From Candidatus Iainarchaeum sp. (GTDB taxonomy: Archaea > Iainarchaeota > Iainarchaeia > Iainarchaeales > 0-14-0-20-30-16), in NCBI GenBank assembly GCA_028710695.1, contig JAQTTP010000007.1, positions 1 to 32,000 on the forward strand: DNA of 32,000 bases. Reading direction: 5' to 3'. The stretch's first letter is position 1. Every line of letters begins with the position of its first letter. Under the pieces are notes generated by a model. That model was not told the origin of the DNA. It did not search any database and saw only the letters and a list, made by a program, of their open reading frames with translations. The translations under genes were made by a program, and so were the position numbers. Shown here in pieces: positions 1,430 through 29,918 of the stretch.

Positions 1430-1530
1430 ATTTACACCTTATAAATGAATTTCAGATTTTATTCTGATTCTTTCTTTTTGACAAACGGGGGCTTTATGCC
1501 CCAATGTTTTTTCTTTGGGGGAACTTACGG

Positions 1531-1559: not shown

Positions 1560-1566
1560 GCATAGA

Positions 1567-1650
1567 CGCAGGGAGTGGGATTCGAACCCACGCCTCCTTG
1601 CGGAGACCGGCTTTCCAGACCGGCGCGTTGAACCACTTCGCTACCCCTGC
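1567..1650 (-). tRNA. tRNA-Ser (anticodon GGA), class II with long variable arm, no encoded CCA
   Basis: Minus-strand fold done by hand. Acceptor GCAGGGG/TCCCTGC. D arm GCG..CGC. Anticodon stem CCGGT/GCCGG with loop CTGGAAA. Variable arm CTCC-GCAA-GGAG. T arm GTGGG-TTCGAAT-CCCAC. Discriminator G. Confidence 0.9.
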
Positions 1651-1675
1651 AATCTTTCTTTCCAAAAGAAAGATT
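1651..1675. repeat. Perfect 11-bp palindromic hairpin (AATCTTTCTTT-CCA-AAAGAAAGATT) directly abutting the 5' end of tRNA-Ser
   Basis: Read directly from the sequence. It has the same core and the same CCA/TGG loop as the hairpin at 1531-1559, so the tRNA is bracketed by twin palindromes. Confidence 0.7.
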
Positions 1676-1692: not shown

Positions 1693-1723
1693 GTACCACA
1701 CAAGGTGGTACAGTGCTTCGCAC
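1693..1723 (-). other. Conserved two-hairpin module, copy 1 (candidate structured RNA or protein-binding element upstream of tRNA-Ser)
   Basis: Minus strand: GTGC-GAA-GCAC, T, GTACCAC-CTTGT-GTGGTAC. Copy 2 at 29887-29918 has the same architecture and two compensatory base-pair changes. Confidence 0.55.
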
Positions 1724-5258: not shown

Positions 5259-5469
5259 TACTGGAAGTATTGGGGGTAATTACCCCAAAAACACACAGTA
5301 ATTACAGTTCTTACCCAGACCGGATTTCATTAACTTTCTTAATTTCATTACCATAATTACCAACTTTCCTAACCAATTATTAACTTTTGGTTTGTATTTG
5401 TTAACCAAACAACATATAGCCAACATAGTCCATATTAATTAGTATACTATACGCCGAGGAGGTGTTGCG

Positions 5470-5739
5470 ATGGATAAGATTATTTTATCATTTGAAGAGT
5501 TGTTTACAAAGTACAAGAATATTTTAAGTCTAAAAGAATTAGTTGATTTTTCAAAACAGTTGGCTGATGCCGGCTACAACCTAGCAATTGGAAAAGATAA
5601 AGATATAGTAAACCCAATTAGCAAACCAGGAGTTGGGCTTTTCGACAGCATAAGAAGAATGGGCAACGGAAATAAAGAAATTGAATTAACTCCGGGCCAA
5701 GAATATATGTACAGATGGAAAGAGCCATGGAAGTTCTAA
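5470..5739 (+). CDS. Hypothetical small protein
   Basis: 89 aa. A strong SD (GAGGAGGTG) ends about 6 nt before the ATG. The stop codon lies in the loop of a 9-bp hairpin. I recognise no motif. Confidence 0.55.
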   Translation: MDKIILSFEELFTKYKNILSLKELVDFSKQLADAGYNLAIGKDKDIVNPISKPGVGLFDSIRRMGNGNKEIELTPGQEYMYRWKEPWKF

Positions 5740-5749
5740 GACTTCCATG
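5726..5749. terminator. 9-bp hairpin (CATGGAAGT-TCTAAG-ACTTCCATG) between convergent genes
   Basis: A perfect inverted repeat spanning the stop codon of 5470-5739 and lying 10 nt from the stop of the convergent gene at 5760. The flanking T-runs are weak. Confidence 0.4.
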
Positions 5750-5759
5750 TATTTCCCCC

Positions 5760-6638: not shown

Positions 6639-7715
6639 CTATTTGTATTCAGTTCCATAGATCTTGAACTCACCAGAAATATCTTTTTCTTGCCATTCTT
6701 TTACCCAATCGTCTATGTTATAAACTTTGTAAGATCCATCTTTTGTACTACAAACAACCTTAGAAAGCCCAGTATTAATTATCATCTTCTTACATATAAA
6801 GCAAGGGAAAGCATCTATTGGCTCAATTATTCCGTGGTATGACTTCTCAGAATAAAGATACATTGTTCCGCCCAAGATCTTCATTCCATTTCTTGCGGCA
6901 TTTATTATTGCATTTTGCTCAGCATGCACAGAAGCGCAAAGTTCATATCTCTGACCAGAAGTTACTTTCATTTTTCTTCTAATACAATAACCTCTTTTGT
7001 AGCAATCTTTAGTTTTTCTCGGAGCCCCGGTATAACCAGAACTAACTATTGTATTATCAACAGTAATCACCGCCCCCATTCTTGCGGACAAGCAGTCCCC
7101 CCTCAGAGCGTGCTCTTTTGCAATATTCAAAAAGAAAGCGTCCCAATTAGGTTTATCTCTATTCCTAATCTGTATTTGTAGCATCAAGTCATCTAGGTTT
7201 TGTTCTAAGTTTTCAATTGTAGAATCATTGTCCAAAACATAGTCTGCCATTTCTTTACATTCAAGCAATTGCTGGGCACTCTCATCTTTGTTCTTTAGTT
7301 CTTTTTTTTCAGATTCTAAAAAAGATTCCAAGCTTGTTGTGTGCTCCATTTCTTTGTTTCTTTTTTTTGCCCTATCGTACCTCACTTCAGGAGATGCAGA
7401 AACAAATATTAAATAAAAGCCAGGCAATTTTCTAAATACATCTATCTCTTTTGGGTTCCTCAAAGATTCTATAACATAGTGCTTCTTATCAAGTATTCTT
7501 CCAACTAATCTTTCTGCAAGAATTCCTGCACCAAAATTTTCTCTTAATTCGTTCCCAACTTTTTGAAGGTTGTCTCTTGTAAGTTCGATTCCTCTTGTTT
7601 TACATTCTTCCCTAATAATATCGGAACAGGAGTGGACTTCAAATCCTTTCTTTCGAAGATATTCTCCTACTGTGTCCTTACCAGACGCAAAAAAACCTGT
7701 AACTCCAAGAATCAT
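6639..7715 (-). CDS. Fusion protein: N-terminal P-loop nucleotide kinase-like domain plus C-terminal dCMP (deoxycytidylate) deaminase
   Basis: 358 aa. The N-terminus MILGVTGFFASGKDTV is a Walker A in a CoaE/NMP-kinase-like context. The C-terminal half has WDAFFLNIAKEHALRGDC, VHAEQNAI (zinc-ligand HAE) and PCFICKKMI (PCxxC). GGTGGT SD lies upstream. Confidence 0.75.
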   Translation of the reverse strand: MILGVTGFFASGKDTVGEYLRKKGFEVHSCSDIIREECKTRGIELTRDNLQKVGNELRENFGAGILAERLVGRILDKKHYVIESLRNPKEIDVFRKLPGFYLIFVSASPEVRYDRAKKRNKEMEHTTSLESFLESEKKELKNKDESAQQLLECKEMADYVLDNDSTIENLEQNLDDLMLQIQIRNRDKPNWDAFFLNIAKEHALRGDCLSARMGAVITVDNTIVSSGYTGAPRKTKDCYKRGYCIRRKMKVTSGQRYELCASVHAEQNAIINAARNGMKILGGTMYLYSEKSYHGIIEPIDAFPCFICKKMIINTGLSKVVCSTKDGSYKVYNIDDWVKEWQEKDISGEFKIYGTEYK

Positions 7716-8972: not shown

Positions 8973-9297
8973 ATTTATTACTCCCTGAAAAGTAATTTTT
9001 GTAATTCAATACTCAACAGAAAAGTCAAATAAACTAATAAGAATCCACTCTTAAACAGAGTAAATAAAATTTATCAACCGTTCTATAGCCCTATTGGCCT
9101 ATATTTTATCGCAATTGCATTTCATCACAATCACCGATTATAGTTTTTTACCTAATCACATCAATTACTATACTATATAACTTACACAGGTATTAGTTTA
9201 TAAATTAGCAAGATAAAAGCAATAGTGTCTACCTTTTGTAAAATATGCATTACATTTAAAAACAAAACCCCCTCTTTAATTAGTTAGCTTTAATGGA

Positions 9298-9366
9298 ATA
9301 TCCCAAACCTTTTGGTTTGTGGATATGGTCTGTTTTTGGCAGACTGTGCCTTTTTTTTAAAAAGGC
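9298..9366 (+). other. Three back-to-back hairpins immediately upstream of tRNA-Pro
   Basis: (i) 9298-9326: ATATCCCAAACC-TTTT-GGTTTG(T)GGATAT, 12 bp with a 1-nt bulge. (ii) 9328-9344: GTCTG-TTTTTGG-CAGAC. (iii) 9348-9366: GCCTTTTT-TTT-AAAAAGGC. The last ends 2 nt before tRNA position +1. Bases 9334-9354 are identical to the reverse complement of 25635-25655. Confidence 0.6.
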
Positions 9367-9368
9367 TA

Positions 9369-9442
9369 GGGGCCGTGGTGTAGCCCGGTAAGCATCTAAG
9401 CTTTGGGAGCTTAAGACCCCGGTTCAAATCCGGGCGGCCTCA
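9369..9442 (+). tRNA. tRNA-Pro (anticodon UGG), no encoded CCA
   Basis: Hand fold. Acceptor GGGGCCG/CGGCCTC (one G-U pair). D stem GTGT/GCAT. Anticodon stem TAAGC/GCTTA with loop TTTGGGA (G37). T arm CCCGG-TTCAAAT-CCGGG. Discriminator A. A T-rich tract (TTTATTTTT) follows. Confidence 0.9.
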
Positions 9443-9449
9443 TTTATTT

Positions 9450-10079
9450 TTAAAGTTTTAACACTTTTATCGCTCTCTTGTATACTGTTTCCATATCTTC
9501 ATCAGCACTAAGCCTTAGAACTTTCTTTTTAGGATAGTAATTCAATACTGGCTCTGCCTTACTCTTGTACTCATTAAGCCTGCTTTTTATTGCTTCGGGC
9601 TTATCGTCATCTCTCTGGAACAACTTAGCGCCGTCTTTATCACAAATCCACTTCACCTTTGGAGGGATATTTATTTCATGATAGATTTCTCCACATTTAG
9701 GACAAGTCCATCTTTTGCTTAATCTATCAACCAAGGTTTTCTCATTTGCCTCAAAAGAAAGCAAGTAATCAAAATTCAAAAAATCTTTAGAACCTTCTGC
9801 TTGCTCTAGAGATCTAGGATATCCATCTAAAATTACCTTTTTGTGCTTGTAATCTATTTTTTCCAAGTATGCCTTTAGTAGGGGGTTCATCATCTCTTGC
9901 GGAACAAACTTTCCACTAGTTATTAGTTTTTCTACTTCTTTCCCAAGTTTAGACCCGCTTGCAACCTCTGCTCTTAAAATGTCACCAGTACTAACATGAA
10001 CAAATCCGTTTCTTTCAACAAACATTCTTGCATAAGTTCCTTTTCCAACGCCGGAAGGCCCGAAAAATAATAATAACAT
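9450..10079 (-). CDS. adk: Adenylate kinase, long form with zinc-lid (CxxC...CxxD)
   Basis: 209 aa. P-loop GPSGVGKGT. Also ILDGYPRSLEQA. The lid is CPKCGEIYH...CDKDG...RDDD. AAGGGGATGA SD lies upstream. There is a 12-nt gap after ndk. Confidence 0.85.
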   Translation of the reverse strand: MLLLFFGPSGVGKGTYARMFVERNGFVHVSTGDILRAEVASGSKLGKEVEKLITSGKFVPQEMMNPLLKAYLEKIDYKHKKVILDGYPRSLEQAEGSKDFLNFDYLLSFEANEKTLVDRLSKRWTCPKCGEIYHEINIPPKVKWICDKDGAKLFQRDDDKPEAIKSRLNEYKSKAEPVLNYYPKKKVLRLSADEDMETVYKRAIKVLKL

Positions 10080-24278: not shown

Positions 24279-25625
24279 ATGCTTGATATTAACTTATTTA
24301 GAGACGATAAAGAGTTCAAAAAGATCTTAGAAAGCGAGAAACGAAGGGCAAAACCCTTAGATTTCGCAAAGGATACAAAGAAGTTCGATGATCTTTGGAA
24401 AAAAGCAAAGCAAGAGAAAGAAGAACTGAGAGCAGAAAAGAACAAGGTTACCAAAGAGATAGCAACCGTAGCTCAAGACAAAAACACAAAAAACGAGCAT
24501 AAAACAAAGGAGATTACAAGATTAAAAGCTAAAAGCAAAGACTTAGATATTAAAATTAAAAATCTAGAAGAGCAAGAAACTAAAGCCCTACAAACAAGAG
24601 ATGAAAACCGTTACAAAGTAGGAAACATCCTTTACCCTTCTGTCCCAAATGGAAAAAGCGATGAAGAGAATGTTCCATTCAAATTCTATGGAAAAGCAAA
24701 AGTCCAGAAGCAGCATTTAGCAGATTTCAAAAAAGCAACTAATAACAAAATGGATTATGAATTATTGGACTTTGAGCCAAAAAGCCATGCAGATCTAGGT
24801 CCCGAAAGAGGACTATTCGATTTAGAAAGAGCTGCAAAAATCTCTGGTGCACGAGCTTATTACCTAAAAGGCAAACTAGCAATCTTACATCTATCTCTTT
24901 TGAGGTTTGCATTAGACAAGCTTGTTGATGCGGGCTACATGCCACTATATACTCCATTTTTAATAAACAAAGATGTTATGGAAAAAGCAGCAGAGCTAGC
25001 AGACTTCAAAGAAACCCTATACCAAACAACAGAAGGCCAATTCCTAATTGCAACAGCAGAGCAGACTTTGGCAGCATATCACCTGGACGAAGTTCTAGAT
25101 GAAAAAATTCTACCCCTAAAGTATGCTGGATACTCTTCCGCATTCCGAAGAGAGGCAGGAAGTGCTGGGAAAGATACAAGAGGGATCTTCAGAGTTCACC
25201 AATTTGATAAAGTTGAGCAATACGTTTTTTGTAAAGCAAAAGACAATGAGAAAATCCATGAGGAACTTCTAAAGAATGCAGAAAGCATTTACAAAGATCT
25301 AGAGCTTCCATACAGAGTTGTTAATATTTGCACAGGGGATATGAACGACACGGCAGCAAAGAAGTATGATATTGAACTGTGGATGCCAGTGCAAGGAAAG
25401 TTCAGAGAGATTGGTTCTTATTCCATAACAACAGATTATCAGACAAGAAAGTTGAATGTAAGATATGAAGAAAAAGGAGAAAGAATAGTTTGCCATTCTT
25501 TGAACGGCACAGCATTACCATCTCCAAGAAGCTTAGCAGCTTTCATCGAGAATCATCAAGACAAGAAAGGAATAATACATATACCAAAAGCATTACAGAA
25601 ATATACGGGGTTTAAAGAGATCTAG
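24279..25625 (+). CDS. serS: Seryl-tRNA synthetase
   Basis: The start is taken at the ATG giving MLDINLFR (the track begins at TTG 24267). N-terminal coiled coil. TAEQTLAAYH. Motif 2 FRREAGSAGKDTRGIFRVHQFDKVEQ. Motif 3 GTALPSPRSLAAFIENHQ. Confidence 0.95.
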   Translation: MLDINLFRDDKEFKKILESEKRRAKPLDFAKDTKKFDDLWKKAKQEKEELRAEKNKVTKEIATVAQDKNTKNEHKTKEITRLKAKSKDLDIKIKNLEEQETKALQTRDENRYKVGNILYPSVPNGKSDEENVPFKFYGKAKVQKQHLADFKKATNNKMDYELLDFEPKSHADLGPERGLFDLERAAKISGARAYYLKGKLAILHLSLLRFALDKLVDAGYMPLYTPFLINKDVMEKAAELADFKETLYQTTEGQFLIATAEQTLAAYHLDEVLDEKILPLKYAGYSSAFRREAGSAGKDTRGIFRVHQFDKVEQYVFCKAKDNEKIHEELLKNAESIYKDLELPYRVVNICTGDMNDTAAKKYDIELWMPVQGKFREIGSYSITTDYQTRKLNVRYEEKGERIVCHSLNGTALPSPRSLAAFIENHQDKKGIIHIPKALQKYTGFKEI

Positions 25626-25712
25626 CCTTTTACGAAAAGGCACAGTCTGCCAAAAGTACCTAAGGTACTAAGGGGCACAAGGCCCCTCGAAATCTCGGTT
25701 TCTAGCCTTTTT
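25621..25712 (-). repeat. Orphan composite hairpin element flanked by an 11-nt direct repeat (TCTAGCCTTTT at 25621-25631 and 25701-25711)
   Basis: Minus strand: AAAAGGCTAGA, then a small CGA-GATT-TCG hairpin, then GGGGC-CTTGT-GCCCC, then GTACC-TTA-GGTAC, then TTTTGGCAGACTGTGCCTTTT-CGT-AAAAGGCTAGA. The last block matches the segment upstream of tRNA-Pro (21-nt exact identity plus 10 nt). The CTTGT-loop hairpin echoes the modules at 1693-1723 and 29887-29918. Confidence 0.6.
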
Positions 25713-26462
25713 TTATTCTTTTTCCAAAGGCAGGGTTAAATTACTGTCCCAGATTGCCCTAAAATAATTTTTATAACTCTCTGCTAAATTCTTGTCAATT
25801 ATTCTAACTGCAAAAGGAAACTCTTTATACCAAAATACCAATACAACTCTATCCCCATAAATCCAGGTGGATGCCGGAGATTCATAACTTTCTGGCATGT
25901 ACTTAACTTGTGTATATTGCATTGCTGCAAATTCTTTTCCTCTTTTCATACTTTGTGGAGTGTTTATCATTATTATCTTCAGGGGGATTTTTGCTTGTTG
26001 CCGTTCTTTTTCAAATGAATGGGCTCTTGCACCACTTATTTCGGGGCCTTTTCCAGGAACATTATAACCAAACCATTCTTGCTTCTGCCTAACAACATCA
26101 TTATAAATAGTTTTTAATCCTTCCAAACCCTCCAAAATCTCCACAATTGGCTTGTTAAATCTTGGTTTATAGAGATTAATCAGTTCTGGCAAAATCTCCT
26201 CAAAAGCTTTTTCTTTTTCTTTTAAGTGGTCCAATATTTTATTTGGCTCTGCGGCACGATAATATCTTACATTATTTTTTATGATATAGGTAACAATTCC
26301 TTTTTCTTCCAAAGTTTCCAAAATAGAATATAGTAAACTTCTGTTTATTTTTGTCCTATTTGCTATTTCGGAAACTAATGCATCCCCCAAGTTAAGTAAG
26401 GCGGTGTAAACCTTTGCTTCTTTAGGGGTTAAGCCTATTTTTTCCAATTGTTCAAGATCCAT
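25713..26462 (-). CDS. TrmB-family transcriptional regulator
   Basis: 249 aa. The N-terminal winged helix LEKIGLTPKEAKVYTALLNLGDALVSEIANRTKINRSLLYSILETLEEKGIV is the classic TrmB signature. A TATA-like TTTAAAATAA lies about 24 nt upstream, suggesting a leaderless transcript. Confidence 0.85.
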   Translation of the reverse strand: MDLEQLEKIGLTPKEAKVYTALLNLGDALVSEIANRTKINRSLLYSILETLEEKGIVTYIIKNNVRYYRAAEPNKILDHLKEKEKAFEEILPELINLYKPRFNKPIVEILEGLEGLKTIYNDVVRQKQEWFGYNVPGKGPEISGARAHSFEKERQQAKIPLKIIMINTPQSMKRGKEFAAMQYTQVKYMPESYESPASTWIYGDRVVLVFWYKEFPFAVRIIDKNLAESYKNYFRAIWDSNLTLPLEKE

Positions 26463-26494
26463 ACCTATTACTAACTAAGAAATTATTTTAAAGA

Positions 26495-26515
26495 TGTTGT
26501 TATAAAAAAACAACA
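26495..26515. promoter_or_regulatory. 7-bp inverted repeat TGTTGTT-ATAAAAA-AACAACA enclosing a TATA-like loop in the trmB / binding-protein divergent spacer
   Basis: Read directly from the sequence. It lies about 55 nt upstream of the binding-protein ATG, which has a GAGGTGG SD. It is a candidate operator overlapping the promoter. Confidence 0.35.
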
Positions 26516-26569
26516 AGGGATTTTATTCTCCAAAAGCCAAAGAGATAATATAACCCACGAGGTGGTTTA

Positions 26570-27709
26570 ATGGATATATGGAAAATAATAACTATTTTCA
26601 TTGTTATAATTGCTATTTTTGCAGTAGTTTTAGATGTAAGTAATGTTGGATTTTTTTCATTAAATAATAGCCCAGAGACAATAAAAGTGGGCGTAATTCT
26701 ACCATTAACAGGAAGCAACTCTGCAGATGCAGGAATACCTATAAAAAAGGGATTAGATTTGGCTCTTGAGGAATTAGATAAAGGCAATACAGACTATAAA
26801 ATAGAATTGGTCTACGAAGATTCACAATATGACAGCAAGGTTGCTGTACAAGCAATACAAAAACTTCTTAATATAGATAAAATAAAATTTATTATCGGGG
26901 AAGCGGGCTCAAGCCAAACATTAGCAATCGCTCCAATTGCTGAGCAAAATAAAATTATTCTAATTTCAACAGCATCACAATCAGACAAAGTTTCAACAGC
27001 AGGAGATTATATTTTTAGAACACAATCAAATGTATCTCAAGAAGCAGAGTTCTTTGCGCCTTATTTGAAAGAACAATTAGGTAACAAAAGCCTTGCAATA
27101 ATTGGGATGAACACAGATTATGGAAAATCATATTCTGATGCTTTTACTAGAGTATTCACAAACTTAGGCGGAAATATCAAATTCTCAGAACTTTACGACA
27201 AAGACGAAAAAGATTTTAAAACAATTTTATCAAAAATAGATGCCGCCAGCGCAGATGCAATATTAATTGCTGGCTTAAGAGAACCAAACGGAATGATACT
27301 AAAGCAAGCCAAGGAATTGAATTTAATAAAACCATTTTATGCAACATCAGCAACACAAGGAAAAGAGTTTTTACAAATTGCTGGAGACTCTGCAGAAGGA
27401 TTAATTTATGCGTATCCTTTTGATGAAACTAGCAATATTATTTCTATGAAATCATATCAAGAAAAATTCTCAGAAAAATATGGCGAAAGCAGCGATATGC
27501 TTTCTGCAAATGCATATGATGCATTAATACTATTAAACACCTGCTTTAAAGAAGTCGGAACAGACCCAGACAATGTAAAGACTTGTTTATACAATACAAA
27601 AGATTACAAAGGCGCAAGCGGAATATTAACATTCGATGCAAACGGAGATGTAAAGAAAAACTTTGTCCTAAAAACAGTTAAAAATGGAAAGTTTGTAAAG
27701 CTTTCCTAA
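26570..27709 (+). CDS. Membrane-anchored solute-binding protein, LivJ/LivK (type I periplasmic-binding-protein) family
   Basis: 379 aa. N-terminal TM anchor, then IKVGVILPLTGSNSADAGIPIKKGLDLALEELDK. Also GEAGSSQTLAIAPIAEQNKIILIS and YGKSYSDAF. No permease or ATPase genes are nearby. Confidence 0.75.
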   Translation: MDIWKIITIFIVIIAIFAVVLDVSNVGFFSLNNSPETIKVGVILPLTGSNSADAGIPIKKGLDLALEELDKGNTDYKIELVYEDSQYDSKVAVQAIQKLLNIDKIKFIIGEAGSSQTLAIAPIAEQNKIILISTASQSDKVSTAGDYIFRTQSNVSQEAEFFAPYLKEQLGNKSLAIIGMNTDYGKSYSDAFTRVFTNLGGNIKFSELYDKDEKDFKTILSKIDAASADAILIAGLREPNGMILKQAKELNLIKPFYATSATQGKEFLQIAGDSAEGLIYAYPFDETSNIISMKSYQEKFSEKYGESSDMLSANAYDALILLNTCFKEVGTDPDNVKTCLYNTKDYKGASGILTFDANGDVKKNFVLKTVKNGKFVKLS

Positions 27710-28086
27710 TTTTTTAATTTAAAAAACATCTTAACAACCGGTGCAATCTCAAACTTATCTAAATCTTTCAAATCTATCCAATTAAAATCCGTATGTTCGT
27801 GGCTTAATTTAACTTTTCCAGAATAATTTTTTATTTTGAAAACAAAGAAGTGAATCTTTTCTCCTTTTTCAGTATAATCAAATTCAGAAAACTTATCTTC
27901 CGGAACTACAGCAAGATTTGTCTCTTCTTTTGCCTCTCTCACCACAGATTGATCTGATGTTTCCCCTAATTCCTGTTTACCACCCGGAAAATCCCAAAGC
28001 CCTGGAAAGAATTTTGCTTTTGCAGATCTCTTTACAAGAAGCACTTTATTACTATCAGATATTACTGCTTTGGCTACTGTAATCAT
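27706..28086 (-). CDS. NUDIX hydrolase (MutT-like)
   Basis: 126 aa. The Nudix box GGKQELGETSDQSVVREAKEETNL fits GX5EX7REUXEEXGU. A TATA-like TTTTTATATAA lies about 25 nt upstream, suggesting a leaderless transcript. The 3' end overlaps the convergent gene by 4 nt. Confidence 0.85.
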   Translation of the reverse strand: MITVAKAVISDSNKVLLVKRSAKAKFFPGLWDFPGGKQELGETSDQSVVREAKEETNLAVVPEDKFSEFDYTEKGEKIHFFVFKIKNYSGKVKLSHEHTDFNWIDLKDLDKFEIAPVVKMFFKLKN

Positions 28087-28161: not shown

Positions 28162-28293
28162 CTAGTTAAGTTCTCCTCTTCTTCTTGCTCTTTCTCTCTT
28201 ATTTCTCTTCATTCTTTTCTTGTGCCATTTCCATCTACCATCGGCAGCCTTGGTTTTCTTAAATCTACTCGAATCTTTTCCTCTATGTCCCAT
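28162..28293 (-). CDS. 43-aa highly basic micro-protein, possible ribosomal protein eL41 homologue (not in the ORF track)
   Basis: Minus-strand ATG at 28293, preceded by AAAGGTGA with 5-nt spacing; stop TAG at 28162-28164. Translation: MGHRGKDSSRFKKTKAADGRWKWHKKRMKRNKRERARRRGELN. The core KWHKKRMKRNKRERAR resembles eukaryotic eL41 KWRKKRMRRLKRKRRK. Long oligo-T runs follow on the minus strand. Confidence 0.5.
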   Translation of the reverse strand: MGHRGKDSSRFKKTKAADGRWKWHKKRMKRNKRERARRRGELN

Positions 28294-28442
28294 TTATTCA
28301 CCTTTCACTTCCCAACTTCCTGAACATAACTCCTCAGGAATGGTACTTCCTACTTCAGCAGGGTTCTCCTAAAATCAGTAGTAATTAATATAATTATTAC
28401 ATACAGTATATTTTTAATAGTTTACCTTAAAATAGGGATAAA

Positions 28443-29630: not shown

Positions 29631-29674
29631 GGCAAGATTACTTGTTTTCTTTCTTTTTGGCAAACTTAGGCTTA

Positions 29675-29699
29675 TTCTTTCTTTTTTGAAAAGAAAGAA
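29675..29699. repeat. Perfect 11-bp palindromic hairpin (TTCTTTCTTTT-TTG-AAAAGAAAGAA), 12 nt beyond the 3' end of tRNA-Glu
   Basis: Homologous in sequence, position and flanks (CTAT..CC on the tRNA side, AGCC-TAAG and TTTGYCAAAAAGAAAGAA on the far side, tRNA-sense strand) to the hairpin at 1531-1559. Confidence 0.7.
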
Positions 29700-29711
29700 A
29701 AAGGATAGTAG

Positions 29712-29783
29712 TGCCCCGACCGGGAATCGAACCCGGGTCGTCGGCTTGAAAGGCCAACGTGATAACCACTACACTACCGGGGC
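29712..29783 (-). tRNA. tRNA-Glu (anticodon UUC), no encoded CCA
   Basis: Hand fold. Acceptor GCCCCGG/TCGGGGC. D arm GTG..CAC. Anticodon stem TTGGC/GCCGA with loop CTTTCAA. T arm CCGGG-TTCGATT-CCCGG. Discriminator A. Confidence 0.9.
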
Positions 29784-29886: not shown

Positions 29887-29918
29887 GCACTACACAAGGT
29901 AGTGCGGTGCTAACGCAC
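29887..29918 (-). other. Conserved two-hairpin module, copy 2 (upstream of tRNA-Glu)
   Basis: Minus strand: GTGC-GTTA-GCAC, C, GCACTAC-CTTGT-GTAGTGC. Compare copy 1 at 1693-1723. Confidence 0.55.

What the first reader, a model, noticed from the sequence alone, without database searches (positions are those of the whole stretch)
25621..25712. Orphan composite of tRNA-associated modules between serS and trmB, flanked by an 11-nt direct repeat
The 87-nt spacer between the convergent serS and trmB genes is filled entirely by this element. TCTAGCCTTTT occurs at both ends (25621-25631, containing the serS stop codon, and 25701-25711, abutting the trmB stop).

On the minus strand the interior carries three parts:
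- GGGGC-CUUGU-GCCCC, with the same loop and closing pair as the tRNA-Ser/Glu upstream modules.
- GUACC-UUA-GGUAC.
- TTTTGGCAGACTGTGCCTTTT-CGT-AAAAGGCTAG.

That last block is a 21-nt exact match, plus a further 10-nt exact match, to the sequence immediately upstream of tRNA-Pro (9334-9369). At the tRNA-Pro locus the final G is tRNA position +1. A 21-nt exact repeat is not expected by chance in 32 kb. Here no tRNA follows; the sequence runs antisense into serS.

Three readings are possible:
- A relic leader of a lost or relocated tRNA gene.
- A small mobile or recombining cassette whose insertion duplicated an 11-bp target (an original serS-stop/T-run terminator, TCTAGCCTTTTTTT).
- A free-standing small RNA or bidirectional terminator built from the same parts as the tRNA leaders.
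Basis: partly seen in the sequence, partly recalled or inferred. Interest (0 to 1): 0.75.

Follow-up and report, generated by a model that had tools for sequence, protein, structure and literature searches.

The report
Solo tRNA-flank hairpin cassette after serS
The 87-base gap between two converging genes of a tiny-genome (DPANN-type) archaeon is filled by a conserved string of hairpins made of the same modules that flank this lineage's tRNA genes. It is most likely a shared two-way transcript-end structure spread by recombination, not the remains of a lost tRNA gene.

Summary
The 21-mer, the 10-mer AAAAGGCTAG, the 11-nt direct repeat and the three hairpins are all at the stated coordinates and far exceed chance.

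The window is a DPANN-type archaeal contig. "trmB" is a TrmB-family HTH regulator, not a tRNA methyltransferase.

The terminal block belongs to a genus-specific 34-nt module, M-hp1: TTTTGGC-N7-GCC TTTT-loop-AAAAGGC YRG.
- It lies flush against the 5' end of tRNA-Pro, tRNA-Glu or tRNA-Ser in different relatives.
- It lies inverted in three tRNA 3' trailers.
- It lies "solo" at three or more non-tRNA sites.

The GGGGC-CUUGU-GCCCC hairpin belongs to a hairpin family with variable stems, an invariant C-G closing pair and a YYURY loop.

A sister genome (SerRS 93%) keeps the element. It is 84% identical, against 69% at serS third codon positions, and its CUUGU stem carries compensatory changes. In that genome the M core is swapped for another family variant. 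Two other relatives lack the element.

Best reading (about 0.5): one arm of the hairpin frame that surrounds some tRNA genes was copied next to serS by recombination. It is kept as the structured 3' end, and probable bidirectional terminator, of serS and trmB. Relic-leader, MITE and sRNA readings are weaker. Function and strand remain unproven.

The parts
25621..25631 (+). Proximal copy of the 11-nt direct repeat TCTAGCCTTTT. It contains the serS stop codon TAG (25623-25625) and the CTAG end of the module.
   Evidence: 2 copies, 0.01 expected. In relatives without the element, serS stops with TAA or TGA at the same codon.
25622..25655 (-). M-hp1 module: TTTTGGCAGACTGTGCC + GCCTTTT-CGT-AAAAGGC + TAG. 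It is a solo copy of the 34-nt tRNA-flank module.
   Evidence: Covariance model R1 scores it 50.6 bits, E = 5e-9. Alignments are A2 and A5. It has 21 + 10 nt exact matches to the tRNA-Pro leader. It is 24/25 identical to the L036 tRNA-Ser leader.
25625..25641 (.). Palindromic hairpin hp1: GCCTTTT-ACG-AAAAGGC (7 bp).
25655..25669 (.). Hairpin AGTACC-TAA-GGTACT. On the - strand it is followed by UUUU.
   Evidence: The stem is kept in L002 except for the loop-closing pair.
25670..25688 (-). GC hairpin GAGGGGC-CUUGU-GCCCCUU. On the - strand it has 7 bp including an outer G.U pair. On the + strand it reads AGGGGC-ACAAG-GCCCCT with 6 bp.
   Evidence: The L002 orthologue GAGAAGC-CUUGU-GCUUCUC has two double compensatory changes plus G.U to G-C.
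25686..25705 (.). 20-nt block CTCGAAATCTCGGTTTCTAG, identical in the sister genome. Its function is unknown.
25701..25711 (+). Distal copy of TCTAGCCTTTT. On the - strand, AAAAGGCTAG is the 3' arm of a second GCCTTT...AAAGGC-TAG hairpin. The 5' arm of that hairpin lies in the last codons of trmB.
   Evidence: non-conserved 5-aa C-terminal extension of TrmB. In L002 this copy is degenerate: TCTAG-GTTGTTTT.
25708..25714 (+). T7 run, the likely oligo-T termination site of serS. It overlaps the trmB stop codon (25713-25715).
   Evidence: 3' flanks of other genes also show a hairpin plus a T-run.
9334..9369 (+). tRNA-attached M-hp1 module in the tRNA-Pro leader. It is the partner of the 21-mer.
   Evidence: 50.2 bits. 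The leader is an insertion relative to L026 and L029.
29655..29708 (+). Inverted, diverged copy of the module. It forms the 3' trailer of tRNA-Glu (29711-29783, -).
   Evidence: 20.2 bits, E = 0.06; this window copy is not significant on its own, and the L026 and L002 trailer copies score E = 0.002 and 0.008. AGCCTAAGTTTGCCAAAA matches the L002 orphan exactly.
1693..1711 (-). CUUGU hairpin in the tRNA-Ser leader: GUACCAC-CUUGU-GUGGUAC.
29887..29905 (-). CUUGU hairpin in the tRNA-Glu leader: GCACUAC-CUUGU-GUAGUGC.
1486..1504 (-). GC hairpin in the tRNA-Ser trailer, GGGGC-AUAAA-GCCCC. It has the same stem as the orphan hairpin, and its loop is of the reverse-complement type.

Best explanation
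The spacer is a solo arm of a lineage-specific, modular hairpin frame that flanks tRNA genes in this archaeal genus.

**Composition of an arm**
- A GC hairpin with a variable stem, an invariant C-G closing pair and a YYURY loop (CUUGU or UUUAU).
- Optional extra hairpins.
- The 34-nt M-hp1 module ending in YRG.

**Where arms occur**
- In one orientation the arm sits flush against tRNA position +1, as the 'leader'.
- In three tRNA 3' trailers a diverged inverted copy of the module lies right after the tRNA 3' end.
- At some loci the leader and trailer are therefore long inverted repeats that can pair around the tRNA.

**What is shown**
- Arms and sub-modules are exchanged between loci by recombination or gene conversion, and by insertion and deletion. 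This is shown by comparison of relatives.
- One arm came to lie with its CTAG end on the serS stop codon.

**What is inferred**
- The element is transcribed as the 3' end of serS on the + strand, up to the T7 run. On that strand it has the layout of a tRNA trailer.
- It is also transcribed as the 3' end of trmB on the - strand, where hairpins are followed by U4 runs.
- It is kept by selection as a structured, bidirectional transcript-end region. That region would terminate or insulate converging transcription and protect 3' ends.
- It is not a tRNA gene remnant.
For: **Module family**
- Nine aligned copies.
- Model R1 recovers them at 36-51 bits.
- It also finds three tRNA trailers as inverted copies (E = 0.002, 0.008, 0.06).
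- It finds nothing in about 130 kb from distant DPANN loci.
- tRNA-attached copies: W Pro, L025 Pro, L002 Glu and L036 Ser.
- Solo copies: serS-trmB (W, L002), upstream of DUF2238 (L002, L003) and upstream of tRNA-Cys (L026).

**Constraint**
- The element is 84% identical between W and L002. serS third codon positions are 69% identical.
- The CUUGU stem changes GG/CC to AA/UU and G.U to G-C.
- A 20-nt block is invariant.

**Exchange**
- The M core differs at 5 of 13 positions between W and L002, against about 10% elsewhere in the element.
- Each version equals another copy of the family. The W version equals the Pro leader. The L002 version equals the Glu trailer or leader type.
- The hp1 of W is 24/25 identical to the L036 tRNA-Ser leader.
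- Leaders differ between close relatives for the same tRNA (against 25; 7 against 81).
- The tRNA-Pro leader grew from about 14 nt to 85-150 nt by cassette insertion behind a conserved promoter-like box.

**Trailer-like layout on the + strand**
- UCUAG, then a hairpin, then M', then GGGGC-ACAAG-GCCCC, then a U-run.
- This parallels the trailers of tRNA-Ser, Cys and Glu.

**Terminator context**
- Other gene ends in the window carry a hairpin plus a T-run.
- T-runs of 6 or more are rarer on sense strands than A-runs (37 against 98; sense strands hold 7,882 T against 10,400 A).

**Leader-trailer complementarity**
- Significant at 3 of 9 tRNA loci (z about -3).
- MFE folds show an enclosing helix.
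Against: - There are no expression data, so termination, 3'-end protection and even the transcribed extent are inferred.
- A single hairpin plus a T-run suffices at other genes. Four or five hairpins are more than a terminator needs.
- On the - strand only T4 runs follow the hairpins.
- On the + strand the T7 run lies 20 nt beyond the last strong hairpin.
- Two relatives manage without the element.
- Intergenic DNA in this compact genome is generally conserved, so 84% identity is not specific proof of this function.
- Only about 150 kb from five or more related genomes could be examined.
- Leader-trailer complementarity is absent at 5 of 9 tRNA loci and marginal at a sixth, L025 Pro (p = 0.07), including tRNA-Pro of the window.
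- The hairpin-family alignment was assembled from sequences chosen because they are hairpins, so its covariation statistics are partly circular.
Confidence: 0.5

Rival explanations
1. Relic leader: a tRNA gene once followed the - strand module directly after CTAG. It was lost or moved by a rearrangement, leaving its 5' leader stranded against serS.
For: - The - strand copy matches leader-type features best: GCC...GGC-CTAG, and a CUUGU loop on a 7-bp stem that needs a G.U pair available only on the - strand.
- tRNA units do move. The tRNA-Pro unit is inverted in L025.
- The same locus carries tRNA-Ser or tRNA-Cys in different relatives.
- tRNA-Pro of the window has lost its trailer; the ADK stop lies 7 nt after the tRNA.
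- The region downstream of serS differs in all four relatives examined.
Against: - There is no trace of a tRNA in the spacer or beyond it.
- The element is more conserved than serS third codon positions, and it carries compensatory changes. That is not expected of a decaying relic.
- Solo modules occur at two other loci, so a lost tRNA is not required.
- The stop codon of an essential gene lies inside the module.
Confidence: 0.15
2. Non-autonomous mobile element (MITE- or PATE-like): an insertion of about 69-80 nt into an original serS stop/T-run site, TCTAGCCTTTTTTT, that duplicated 11 bp of target.
For: - The exact 11-nt flanking repeat.
- The element is present in W and L002 but absent in L003/L009 and L023.
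- Similar hairpin cassettes are flanked by local direct repeats elsewhere. One has a 24-25-nt repeat in L026 at about 7545-7570 and 7640-7664. Another has 17 nt of duplicated tRNA 3' end in L036.
- Cassettes are present or absent at orthologous sites: the tRNA-Pro leader and the region upstream of DUF2238.
- Several metagenome contigs break inside tRNA leaders.
Against: - The element has no terminal inverted repeats.
- The direct-repeat lengths differ (11, 17 and 24-25 nt).
- The repeat is itself the end of the module (AAAAGGCTAG), so it may reflect tandem or partial module copies.
- The distal repeat is degenerate in L002.
- No whole-element second copy exists in the DNA examined; only sub-modules repeat.
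- No transposase is seen nearby.
- Relatives lacking the element also have different downstream genes, so no true empty site is available.
- A viral-contig scan gave only chance hits.
Confidence: 0.2
3. Regulatory RNA, in one of two forms.
- The serS 3' UTR (+ strand) pairs in trans with the pre-tRNA-Pro leader. Twenty-one contiguous base pairs plus a further 10 are possible.
- The - strand gives an sRNA or antisense RNA against the serS 3' end.

Either form would couple SerRS, TrmB and tRNA expression.
For: - There is perfect 21-nt and 10-nt complementarity to the tRNA-Pro leader.
- In L002 the swapped M core is again complementary to a tRNA leader of that genome, tRNA-Glu, with one mismatch.
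- The structure is under selection.
- The fold energies are modestly better than for shuffles, z about -2.3 on both strands.
Against: - Complementarity follows automatically from the inverted-repeat nature of the family.
- No promoter is evident for an independent RNA.
- There is no Rfam match.
- The partner tRNA would differ between sister genomes.
- No expression data exist.
Confidence: 0.1

Closest known systems
Bacterial REP/BIME elements (repetitive extragenic palindromes, bacterial interspersed mosaic elements). Comparison from general knowledge.
   Same: - Short extragenic palindromic units combined in variable mosaics.
- Often located between converging genes and in 3' UTRs.
- They stabilise mRNA 3' ends or act as terminators.
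- They are hotspots of rearrangement.
   Different: - The host here is an archaeon.
- The units sit flush against the mature ends of tRNA genes.
- In the GC hairpins it is the loop and closing pair that are conserved, not the stem.
- The copy number is unknown.
- No RAYT-type transposase has been identified or tested.
Palindromic GC clusters of fungal mitochondrial genomes: yeast GC42, and the Neurospora GC-rich palindromes that flank tRNA genes (Yin et al. 1981, as cited in PMC4478555).
   Same: - GC-rich hairpins in an AT-rich compact genome (33% GC here).
- Located in intergenic regions, with an association to tRNA genes.
- Presence/absence varies between close relatives.
- Short flanking direct repeats.
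- 'Merger and shuffling' of sub-units, and exchange by homologous recombination (PMC4478555).
   Different: - Those elements are in organelles; this one is in a free archaeal chromosome.
- The sequences are unrelated.
- The module here includes T/A-run palindromes and ends exactly at tRNA +1.
- The mechanism is unknown in both cases.
MITEs (miniature inverted-repeat transposable elements)
   Same: - Small and non-coding.
- Flanked by a direct repeat.
- Polymorphic between relatives.
   Different: - The orphan has no terminal inverted repeats.
- The flanking repeat lengths vary.
- Only sub-modules are multi-copy, not the whole element.
Leader-trailer processing helices of archaeal stable RNAs: pre-rRNA stems with a bulge-helix-bulge motif, and permuted or split tRNA precursors (PMC7714728, PMC3978253; seen as titles and abstracts only).
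   Same: At some tRNA loci of this genus the 5' leader and 3' trailer are complementary. They are predicted to enclose the tRNA.
   Different: - No bulge-helix-bulge motif was recognisable.
- Complementarity is present at only about a third of the loci.
- The orphan has one arm only, so it cannot form such a helix in cis.
Archaeal oligo-T terminators and hairpin-plus-U-run (intrinsic-type) terminators
   Same: - A T7 run lies downstream of serS.
- On the trmB strand, hairpins are followed by U4.
- The same hairpin plus T-run pattern occurs at other gene ends in the window.
   Different: - There are four or five hairpins instead of one.
- The parts are shared with tRNA flanks.
- Termination has not been demonstrated.

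Membership tests
pre-tRNA 5' leader (functional) | Lies directly upstream of a tRNA gene on the same strand | tested here: not met
   ARAGORN and Rfam find no tRNA in or next to 25560-25780. The - strand continues antisense into serS.
M-hp1 tRNA-flank module (family defined here) | TTTTGGC-N7-GCC, then a T-run/loop/A-run hairpin closed by GCC/GGC, then YRG | tested here: met
   Model R1 scores 50.6 bits, the top hit. The training set includes this copy, so the score is partly by construction. Independent support is the 21 + 10 nt exact match to the tRNA-Pro leader and the 24/25 match to the L036 Ser leader.
YYURY-loop GC hairpin family (defined here) | Stem of 5-7 bp with variable sequence, invariant C-G closing pair, loop CUUGU or UUUAU (reverse complement ACAAG or AUAAA) | tested here: met
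   - Ten instances were aligned. The inner 5 pairs are always paired, with several pair types.
- The closing pair is C-G in 10 of 10.
- The orthologous pair W/L002 has compensatory changes.
- Caveat: the instances were selected because they are hairpins.
MITE | Terminal inverted repeats at the element ends | tested here: not met
   The ends of the interior (ACGAAAAGG... and ...ATCTCGGTT) are not inverted repeats, by direct reading. The repeat finder reports none for the spacer.
MITE | Target-site duplication of fixed length, with an empty site in relatives | tested here: inconclusive
   - An 11-nt exact direct repeat is present, but it is degenerate in L002.
- Other cassettes have repeats of 17 and 24-25 nt.
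- Relatives lacking the element have non-homologous downstream DNA.
MITE / REP | Many near-identical copies in the genome, and a cognate transposase (IS or RAYT) | not testable with these tools
   - Only 55 kb of this genome, and about 100 kb from relatives, could be reached.
- In that DNA only sub-modules repeat.
- No transposase gene is evident among the ORFs of the window (only six neighbours of the spacer were scanned against Pfam).
Archaeal oligo-T terminator | Run of 5 or more T on the transcribed strand shortly after the stop codon | tested here: met
   - + strand (serS): T7 at 25708-25714, which is 83 nt after the stop.
- - strand (trmB): only two T4 runs. The feature is therefore met for serS and only weakly for trmB.
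Bulge-helix-bulge processing stem | Two 3-nt bulges separated by a 4-bp helix, formed by leader-trailer pairing | tested here: not met
   MFE folds of four pre-tRNA regions show enclosing helices without a BHB. The orphan has no partner arm in cis.
Any Rfam family (tRNA, sRNA, C/D or H/ACA sRNA, CRISPR repeat) | Covariance-model score at or above the gathering threshold | tested here: not met
   The best sub-threshold hits score 14-15 bits against thresholds of 39-102 bits. Only the three tRNAs pass in the whole window.

The most novel reading that the evidence does not exclude
tRNA genes of this DPANN genus may sit in exchangeable 'cassette frames'. Inverted copies of a structure-defined module would lie flush with the mature 5' and 3' ends of the tRNA.

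The frames could serve one of two roles:
- Recombination sites, used as folded hairpins in a way comparable to integron attC sites.
- A previously undescribed leader-trailer processing scaffold.

Either role would allow tRNAs, leaders and trailers to be swapped between loci. Observed cases are Ser against Cys at one locus, and Pro, Glu and Ser sharing one leader module. The serS-trmB element would then be a half or empty frame. Because its arm stays complementary to a pre-tRNA leader, it might also titrate or pair with that precursor.
Probability: 0.2. Interest if true: 0.8.

Novelty: new variant of a known kind. Interest (0 to 1): 0.55.

Why it matters
- **Annotation.** The spacer should not be annotated as a lost tRNA or a pseudogene. 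It is one copy of a repeat family that explains several things seen in these MAGs:
  - assemblies break inside the tRNA leader at one locus (three contigs);
  - leaders differ between near-identical genomes;
  - small inversions and gene-order changes cluster at such sites.
- **Biology.**
  - Interspersed mosaic palindromes are well known in bacteria and in fungal mitochondria. I found no description of them for DPANN archaea; four text searches of the paper library were run, and none matched.
  - A module that ends exactly at tRNA +1, with an inverted copy right after the 3' end of three tRNAs, raises a testable question. Either pre-tRNA processing or tRNA gene turnover in these reduced genomes may use a structure not seen elsewhere.
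  - The compensatory substitutions show that at least one hairpin is under selection.

Tried and rejected
1. **CUUGU loop as transcription start, or M as BRE/TATA.** The distances from TATA-like boxes fit for tRNA-Ser only. They do not fit for tRNA-Glu or the orphan. M at -35 to -19 is not AT-rich. The T/A palindrome of hp1 would place the start inside the tRNA. Rejected.

2. **Degenerate tRNA, tRNA half or cloverleaf in the spacer.** The MFE shows a weak three-hairpin junction, but ARAGORN and Rfam find nothing. No C/D or H/ACA boxes are seen by reading the sequence.

3. **Conserved 3' feature of trmB.** The nearest non-genus TrmB homologue (72% identity, L035) has an unrelated 3' flank.

4. 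**Viral or integrative-element origin.** A scan of IMG/VR with the degenerate M pattern gave four chance hits in coding DNA of unrelated phages.

5. **A 16.3-kb inversion between the two inverted copies (9334-9369 and 25621-25655).** L025, L002 and L003 are collinear with the window across the parts they cover. Only the tRNA-Pro unit of about 190 nt itself is flipped in L025. There is no evidence for the large inversion, and read-level data were not available.

6. **Bulge-helix-bulge in leader-trailer helices.** None was seen.

7. **A leader-trailer helix as a universal feature.** It is significant at only 3 of 9 loci, so the claim was toned down.

8. **Strand assignment from G.U pairs.** W has a G.U pair possible only on the - strand. 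L002 can add a U.G pair only on the + strand. The result is inconclusive.

9. **Literature searches.** Searches for DPANN or archaeal tRNA-flanking palindromes found no description.
Full report
**1. Context**

The window is part of a 54.9-kb contig from a Logan assembly of SRR22315508. NCBI holds the same proteins under 'MAG: Candidatus ainarchaeum sp.'.
- Gene content is archaeal and DPANN-like: AglB/STT3, NurA, and tRNAs without an encoded CCA.
- G+C is 33%.
- The gene converging on serS is a TrmB-family HTH regulator (PF01978), not a tRNA methyltransferase.
- Close relatives were obtained from public genomes and metagenomes:

| Locus | Marker identity to the window |
|---|---|
| L002 = L010 | SerRS 93% |
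| L003 = L009, same MAG as L026 | SerRS 82% |
| L023 | SerRS C-terminus 97% |
| L025 | ADK 80% |
| L029 / L030 | ADK 72% |
| L036 / L037 | HD protein 90% |
| L038 / L039 | HD protein 83% |

**2.

- The spacer is 87 nt.
- The 11-nt repeat TCTAGCCTTTT lies at 25621-25631 and 25701-25711. Shuffles expect 0.01 copies.
- The 21-mer lies at 9334-9354 (+) and 25635-25655 (-). No other copy exists within 3 mismatches, and 0 are expected.
- AAAAGGCTAG occurs three times.
- tRNA-Pro starts at the G of CTAG.
- The three palindromic hairpins are present.
- The CUUGU loop with a C-G closing pair is shared with 7-bp hairpins upstream of tRNA-Ser and tRNA-Glu.
- No tRNA and no Rfam family is detectable in the spacer.

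**3. The terminal block is one copy of a 34-nt module**

Nine sequences from five genomes align to this pattern: TTTTGGC-ARACKNW-GCC, then TTTT-loop-AAAAGGC, then YRG. I call it M-hp1.
- Four copies abut tRNA position +1:
  - tRNA-Pro in the window and in L025;
  - tRNA-Glu in L002;
  - tRNA-Ser in L036/L037, which has a partial M.
- The other copies are solo:
  - the serS-trmB spacer in the window and L002;
  - a site upstream of a DUF2238 gene in L002 and L003;
  - a site about 180 nt upstream of tRNA-Cys in L026.
- A covariance model built from the nine copies finds them at 36-51 bits.
- It also detects the 3' trailers of tRNA-Cys (L026) and tRNA-Glu (L002) as inverted copies at E = 0.002 and 0.008, and that of the window's tRNA-Glu only weakly (E = 0.06). 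Each ends within a few nucleotides of the tRNA 3' end.
- It has no hit in about 130 kb of more distant DPANN loci.

The module is therefore genus-specific. It sits at tRNA +1 in four cases, lies inverted right after the 3' end of three tRNAs, and is about as often solo as tRNA-attached.

**4. The GC hairpin also belongs to a family**

- 7-bp hairpins with a CUUGU loop occur five times with unrelated stems: the window's Ser leader, Glu leader and orphan, the L002 orphan, and L002 11755-11773.
- The L039 tRNA-Cys leader has the stem of the window's Glu hairpin but the loop UUUAU.
- tRNA trailers end in GGGSC-AUAAA-GSCCC or GGGCC-GUAGA-GGCCC hairpins. These are the reverse-complement loop types.
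- In one orientation, ten instances share an invariant C-G closing pair, a YYURY loop and always-paired inner stems with several pair types.
- These instances were chosen because they are hairpins, so the statistics are partly circular.

The independent evidence is the orthologous comparison in section 5.

**5. The sister genome shows constraint and exchange**

L002 keeps the element at the same place.

*Constraint*
- Element identity is 84% (75 of 89). serS third codon positions are 69% identical.
- The stem GAGGGGC/GCCCCUU becomes GAGAAGC/GCUUCUC. That is two double compensatory changes plus G.U to G-C, with the loop unchanged.
- A 20-nt block (25686-25705) is invariant.

*Exchange*
- The M core differs at 5 of 13 positions: GGCACAGTCTGCC against GCCTAAGTTTGCC.
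- Each version equals another family copy. The window version matches the tRNA-Pro leader of the window and of L025. The L002 version matches the tRNA-Glu trailer of the window (19 nt exact) and the tRNA-Glu leader of L002.
- The window's hp1 is 24/25 identical to the L036 tRNA-Ser leader.

This patchwise replacement in an otherwise conserved element is what gene conversion between dispersed copies produces.

*Other changes at the locus*
- In L002, trmB is deleted apart from its last 13 codons or so.
- L003/L009 and L023 lack the element. Their serS ends with TAA or TGA, and different genes follow.
- The serS stop codon TAG is therefore supplied by the CTAG of the module only where the element is present.

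**6. Cassettes come and go at other sites**

- *tRNA-Pro leader.* A promoter-like box, ATTTAAAAACAAA(A)CC, is conserved in four relatives. The distance from it to tRNA-Pro gives a leader of about 14 nt (L026), 31 nt (L029), 85 nt (window) or 150 nt (L025). The difference is made of hairpins plus M-hp1 inserted directly 5' of the tRNA.
- *tRNA-Glu leader.* Between the window and L002 the tRNA-Glu leader is entirely different downstream of a shared terminator hairpin.
- *Upstream of DUF2238.*
  - L002 has a cassette of about 90 nt, a CUUGU hairpin plus M-hp1. It is homologous to the window's tRNA-Pro leader.
  - L003 has M-hp1 only.
  - The window has an unrelated 24-nt hairpin.
- *Flanking direct repeats.* The L026 solo cassette is flanked by a direct repeat of 24-25 nt. 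The L036 tRNA-Ser is followed by a hairpin cassette of about 90 nt and then a 17-nt exact duplicate of the tRNA 3' end.
- *tRNA identity at one locus.* The locus beside an orthologous class-I aaRS (80% identity) holds tRNA-Ser(GGA) in the window and L036. It holds tRNA-Cys(GCA) in L026 and L039. The trailers at this locus are homologous, and the leaders are mixed and matched.
- *Inversion.* The tRNA-Pro unit is inverted relative to its neighbours in L025.
- *Assembly breaks.* Three contigs end 50-60 nt upstream of the tRNA.

**7. Orientation is ambiguous**

*The - strand reads as a leader.* The layout is GC hairpin (CUUGU), a second hairpin, M, hp1, then CUAG.

*The + strand reads as a tRNA trailer placed after serS.*
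- The layout is UCUAG, hairpin, M', spacer, GGGGC-ACAAG-GCCCC, then a U-run.
- Compare the window's tRNA-Ser trailer: UCUAUG, hairpin, M'-like, spacer, GGGGC-AUAAA-GCCCC, U-rich.

*Leaders and trailers are inverted versions of each other at some loci.*
- Leader-trailer duplexes beat dinucleotide shuffles at window Ser, L039 Cys and L002 Glu (z = -2.6 to -3.0).
- They are marginal at L025 Pro, and not significant at five other loci, including tRNA-Pro of the window.
- MFE folds show a helix enclosing hairpin, tRNA and hairpin.

*G.U evidence for strand is weak and conflicting*.

'One arm of a tRNA frame' therefore describes the element better than 'leader'.

**8. Probable function**

*Shown*
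- The family exists, and the orphan belongs to it.
- It is under purifying and structural constraint.
- Its parts are exchanged with other copies.

*Inferred*
- Both strands are transcribed as 3' UTRs.
- Other gene ends in the window show a hairpin followed by a T-run.
- Long T-runs are rarer on sense strands than A-runs (37 against 98 for runs of 6 or more; sense strands hold 7,882 T against 10,400 A).
- serS has T7 at 25708-25714. The trmB strand has two hairpins, each followed by U4.

I therefore take the element to be a shared bidirectional transcript-end structure, for termination or insulation and for 3'-end protection. It would have been recruited from the tRNA-flank repeat family (confidence about 0.5).

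*Caveats*
- The number of hairpins exceeds what a terminator needs.
- Relatives do without the element.

A largely selfish or neutral repeat tolerated in a 'safe' site therefore remains possible. It overlaps the mobile-element rival.

**9. Comparison with known systems**

- *Closest analogues.* These are bacterial REP/BIME mosaics and the palindromic GC clusters of AT-rich fungal mitochondrial genomes. The GC clusters were first noted flanking Neurospora tRNA genes. In yeast they show presence/absence, short flanking repeats, 'merger and shuffling' and recombinational exchange (PMC4478555).
- *Differences.* The host is an archaeal chromosome. The module is flush with the mature ends of the tRNA. 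In the GC hairpins the loop, not the stem, is conserved.
- *Tests failed or left open.* The element fails the MITE test for terminal inverted repeats. The target-duplication test is inconclusive. It fails the BHB test and every Rfam family.
- *Literature.* I found no description of such elements in DPANN archaea in the searchable literature.

**10. Verdict**

This is a real, non-random and conserved element. I rate it a new variant of a known kind of interspersed mosaic palindromic element, and score it moderately interesting at 0.55.

The more novel possibility has a probability of about 0.2. It is that tRNA genes here reside in exchangeable inverted-repeat frames, used either for recombination or for an unusual mode of pre-tRNA processing.

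Noticed in passing
window 1565-1651 (-); L026 7834-7909; L036 58-142; L039 969-1040: The orthologous locus beside a class-I aaRS (80% aa identity) carries tRNA-Ser(GGA) in the window and L036/L037. It carries tRNA-Cys(GCA) in L026 and L038/L039. The two tRNAs share the acceptor stem (GCAGGGG/CCCTGC) and the T arm. Their trailers are homologous.
   Followed up: partly
L036 121-137 and 234-250: After tRNA-Ser comes a hairpin cassette of about 90 nt. It is followed by a 17-nt exact duplicate of the tRNA 3' end (TTCGAATCCCACTCCC). This resembles an att-like or target duplication around a tiny insert.
   Followed up: partly
window 9255-9444 against L025 7785-8047: The whole tRNA-Pro unit (promoter-like box, leader and tRNA) is inverted relative to the flanking ADK and helicase genes in L025, and apparently in L029/L030. 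In the window the unit is bounded by short AT-rich inverted repeats, TTTAAAAAYAAA.
   Followed up: partly
window 9443-9452: tRNA-Pro has essentially no 3' trailer in the window, since the ADK stop codon lies 7 nt after the tRNA. The L026 orthologue has a modular trailer of about 80 nt.
   Followed up: no
window 28162-28293 (-): An unannotated-looking 43-codon ORF for a very basic peptide (MGHRGKDSSRFKKTKAADGRWKWHKKRMKRNKRERARRRGELN). It is conserved in L002, L003 and L023 and is followed by a conserved AGAACT-AGTTA-AGTTCT hairpin.
   Followed up: partly
window 28318-28375; L002 11737-11860; L003 9600-9690: Between the small basic ORF and the DUF2238 gene lies a conserved hairpin, AGGAA/GGGAG-UGGUAC-UUCCU/UUCCC, with compensatory changes. 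Its enclosing arms differ in each genome: M/M' in L002 and L003, and CCUGAA/UUCAGCAGG in the window. This could be a structured RNA or a leader.
   Followed up: partly
window 25716-25745 (-): TrmB of the window has a non-conserved 5-aa C-terminal extension relative to homologues. The codons of the extension form the 5' arm of a second GCCTTT...AAAGGC-TAG hairpin together with the distal direct repeat.
   Followed up: partly
window 25713-28086 against L002 11430-11560 and L003 8200-9440: The region downstream of serS is a rearrangement hotspot. The window has trmB, a periplasmic-binding-protein gene and a NUDIX gene. In L002 all three are deleted apart from about 13 trmB codons. In L003 the binding-protein gene is inverted, and trmB and NUDIX are absent.
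   Followed up: partly
L036 1-57; L037 1-51; L038 1-61: Three independent metagenome contigs end 50-60 nt upstream of the same tRNA locus, inside the leader. This suggests repeat-induced or strain-variation-induced assembly breaks.
   Followed up: no
L028 725-1253; L029 1295-1832; L030 1174-1711: A PemK/RHH toxin-antitoxin pair is inserted between ADK and tRNA-Pro in some relatives. It is absent from the window.
   Followed up: no
window 5259-5759: A 501-nt gap with no ORF of 90 aa or more lies between two converging genes. It has GC hairpins at both ends (TTGGGG-GTAATTA-CCCCAA and CATGGAAGT-TCTAAG-ACTTCCATG). It has no Rfam hit at the gathering threshold.
   Followed up: no
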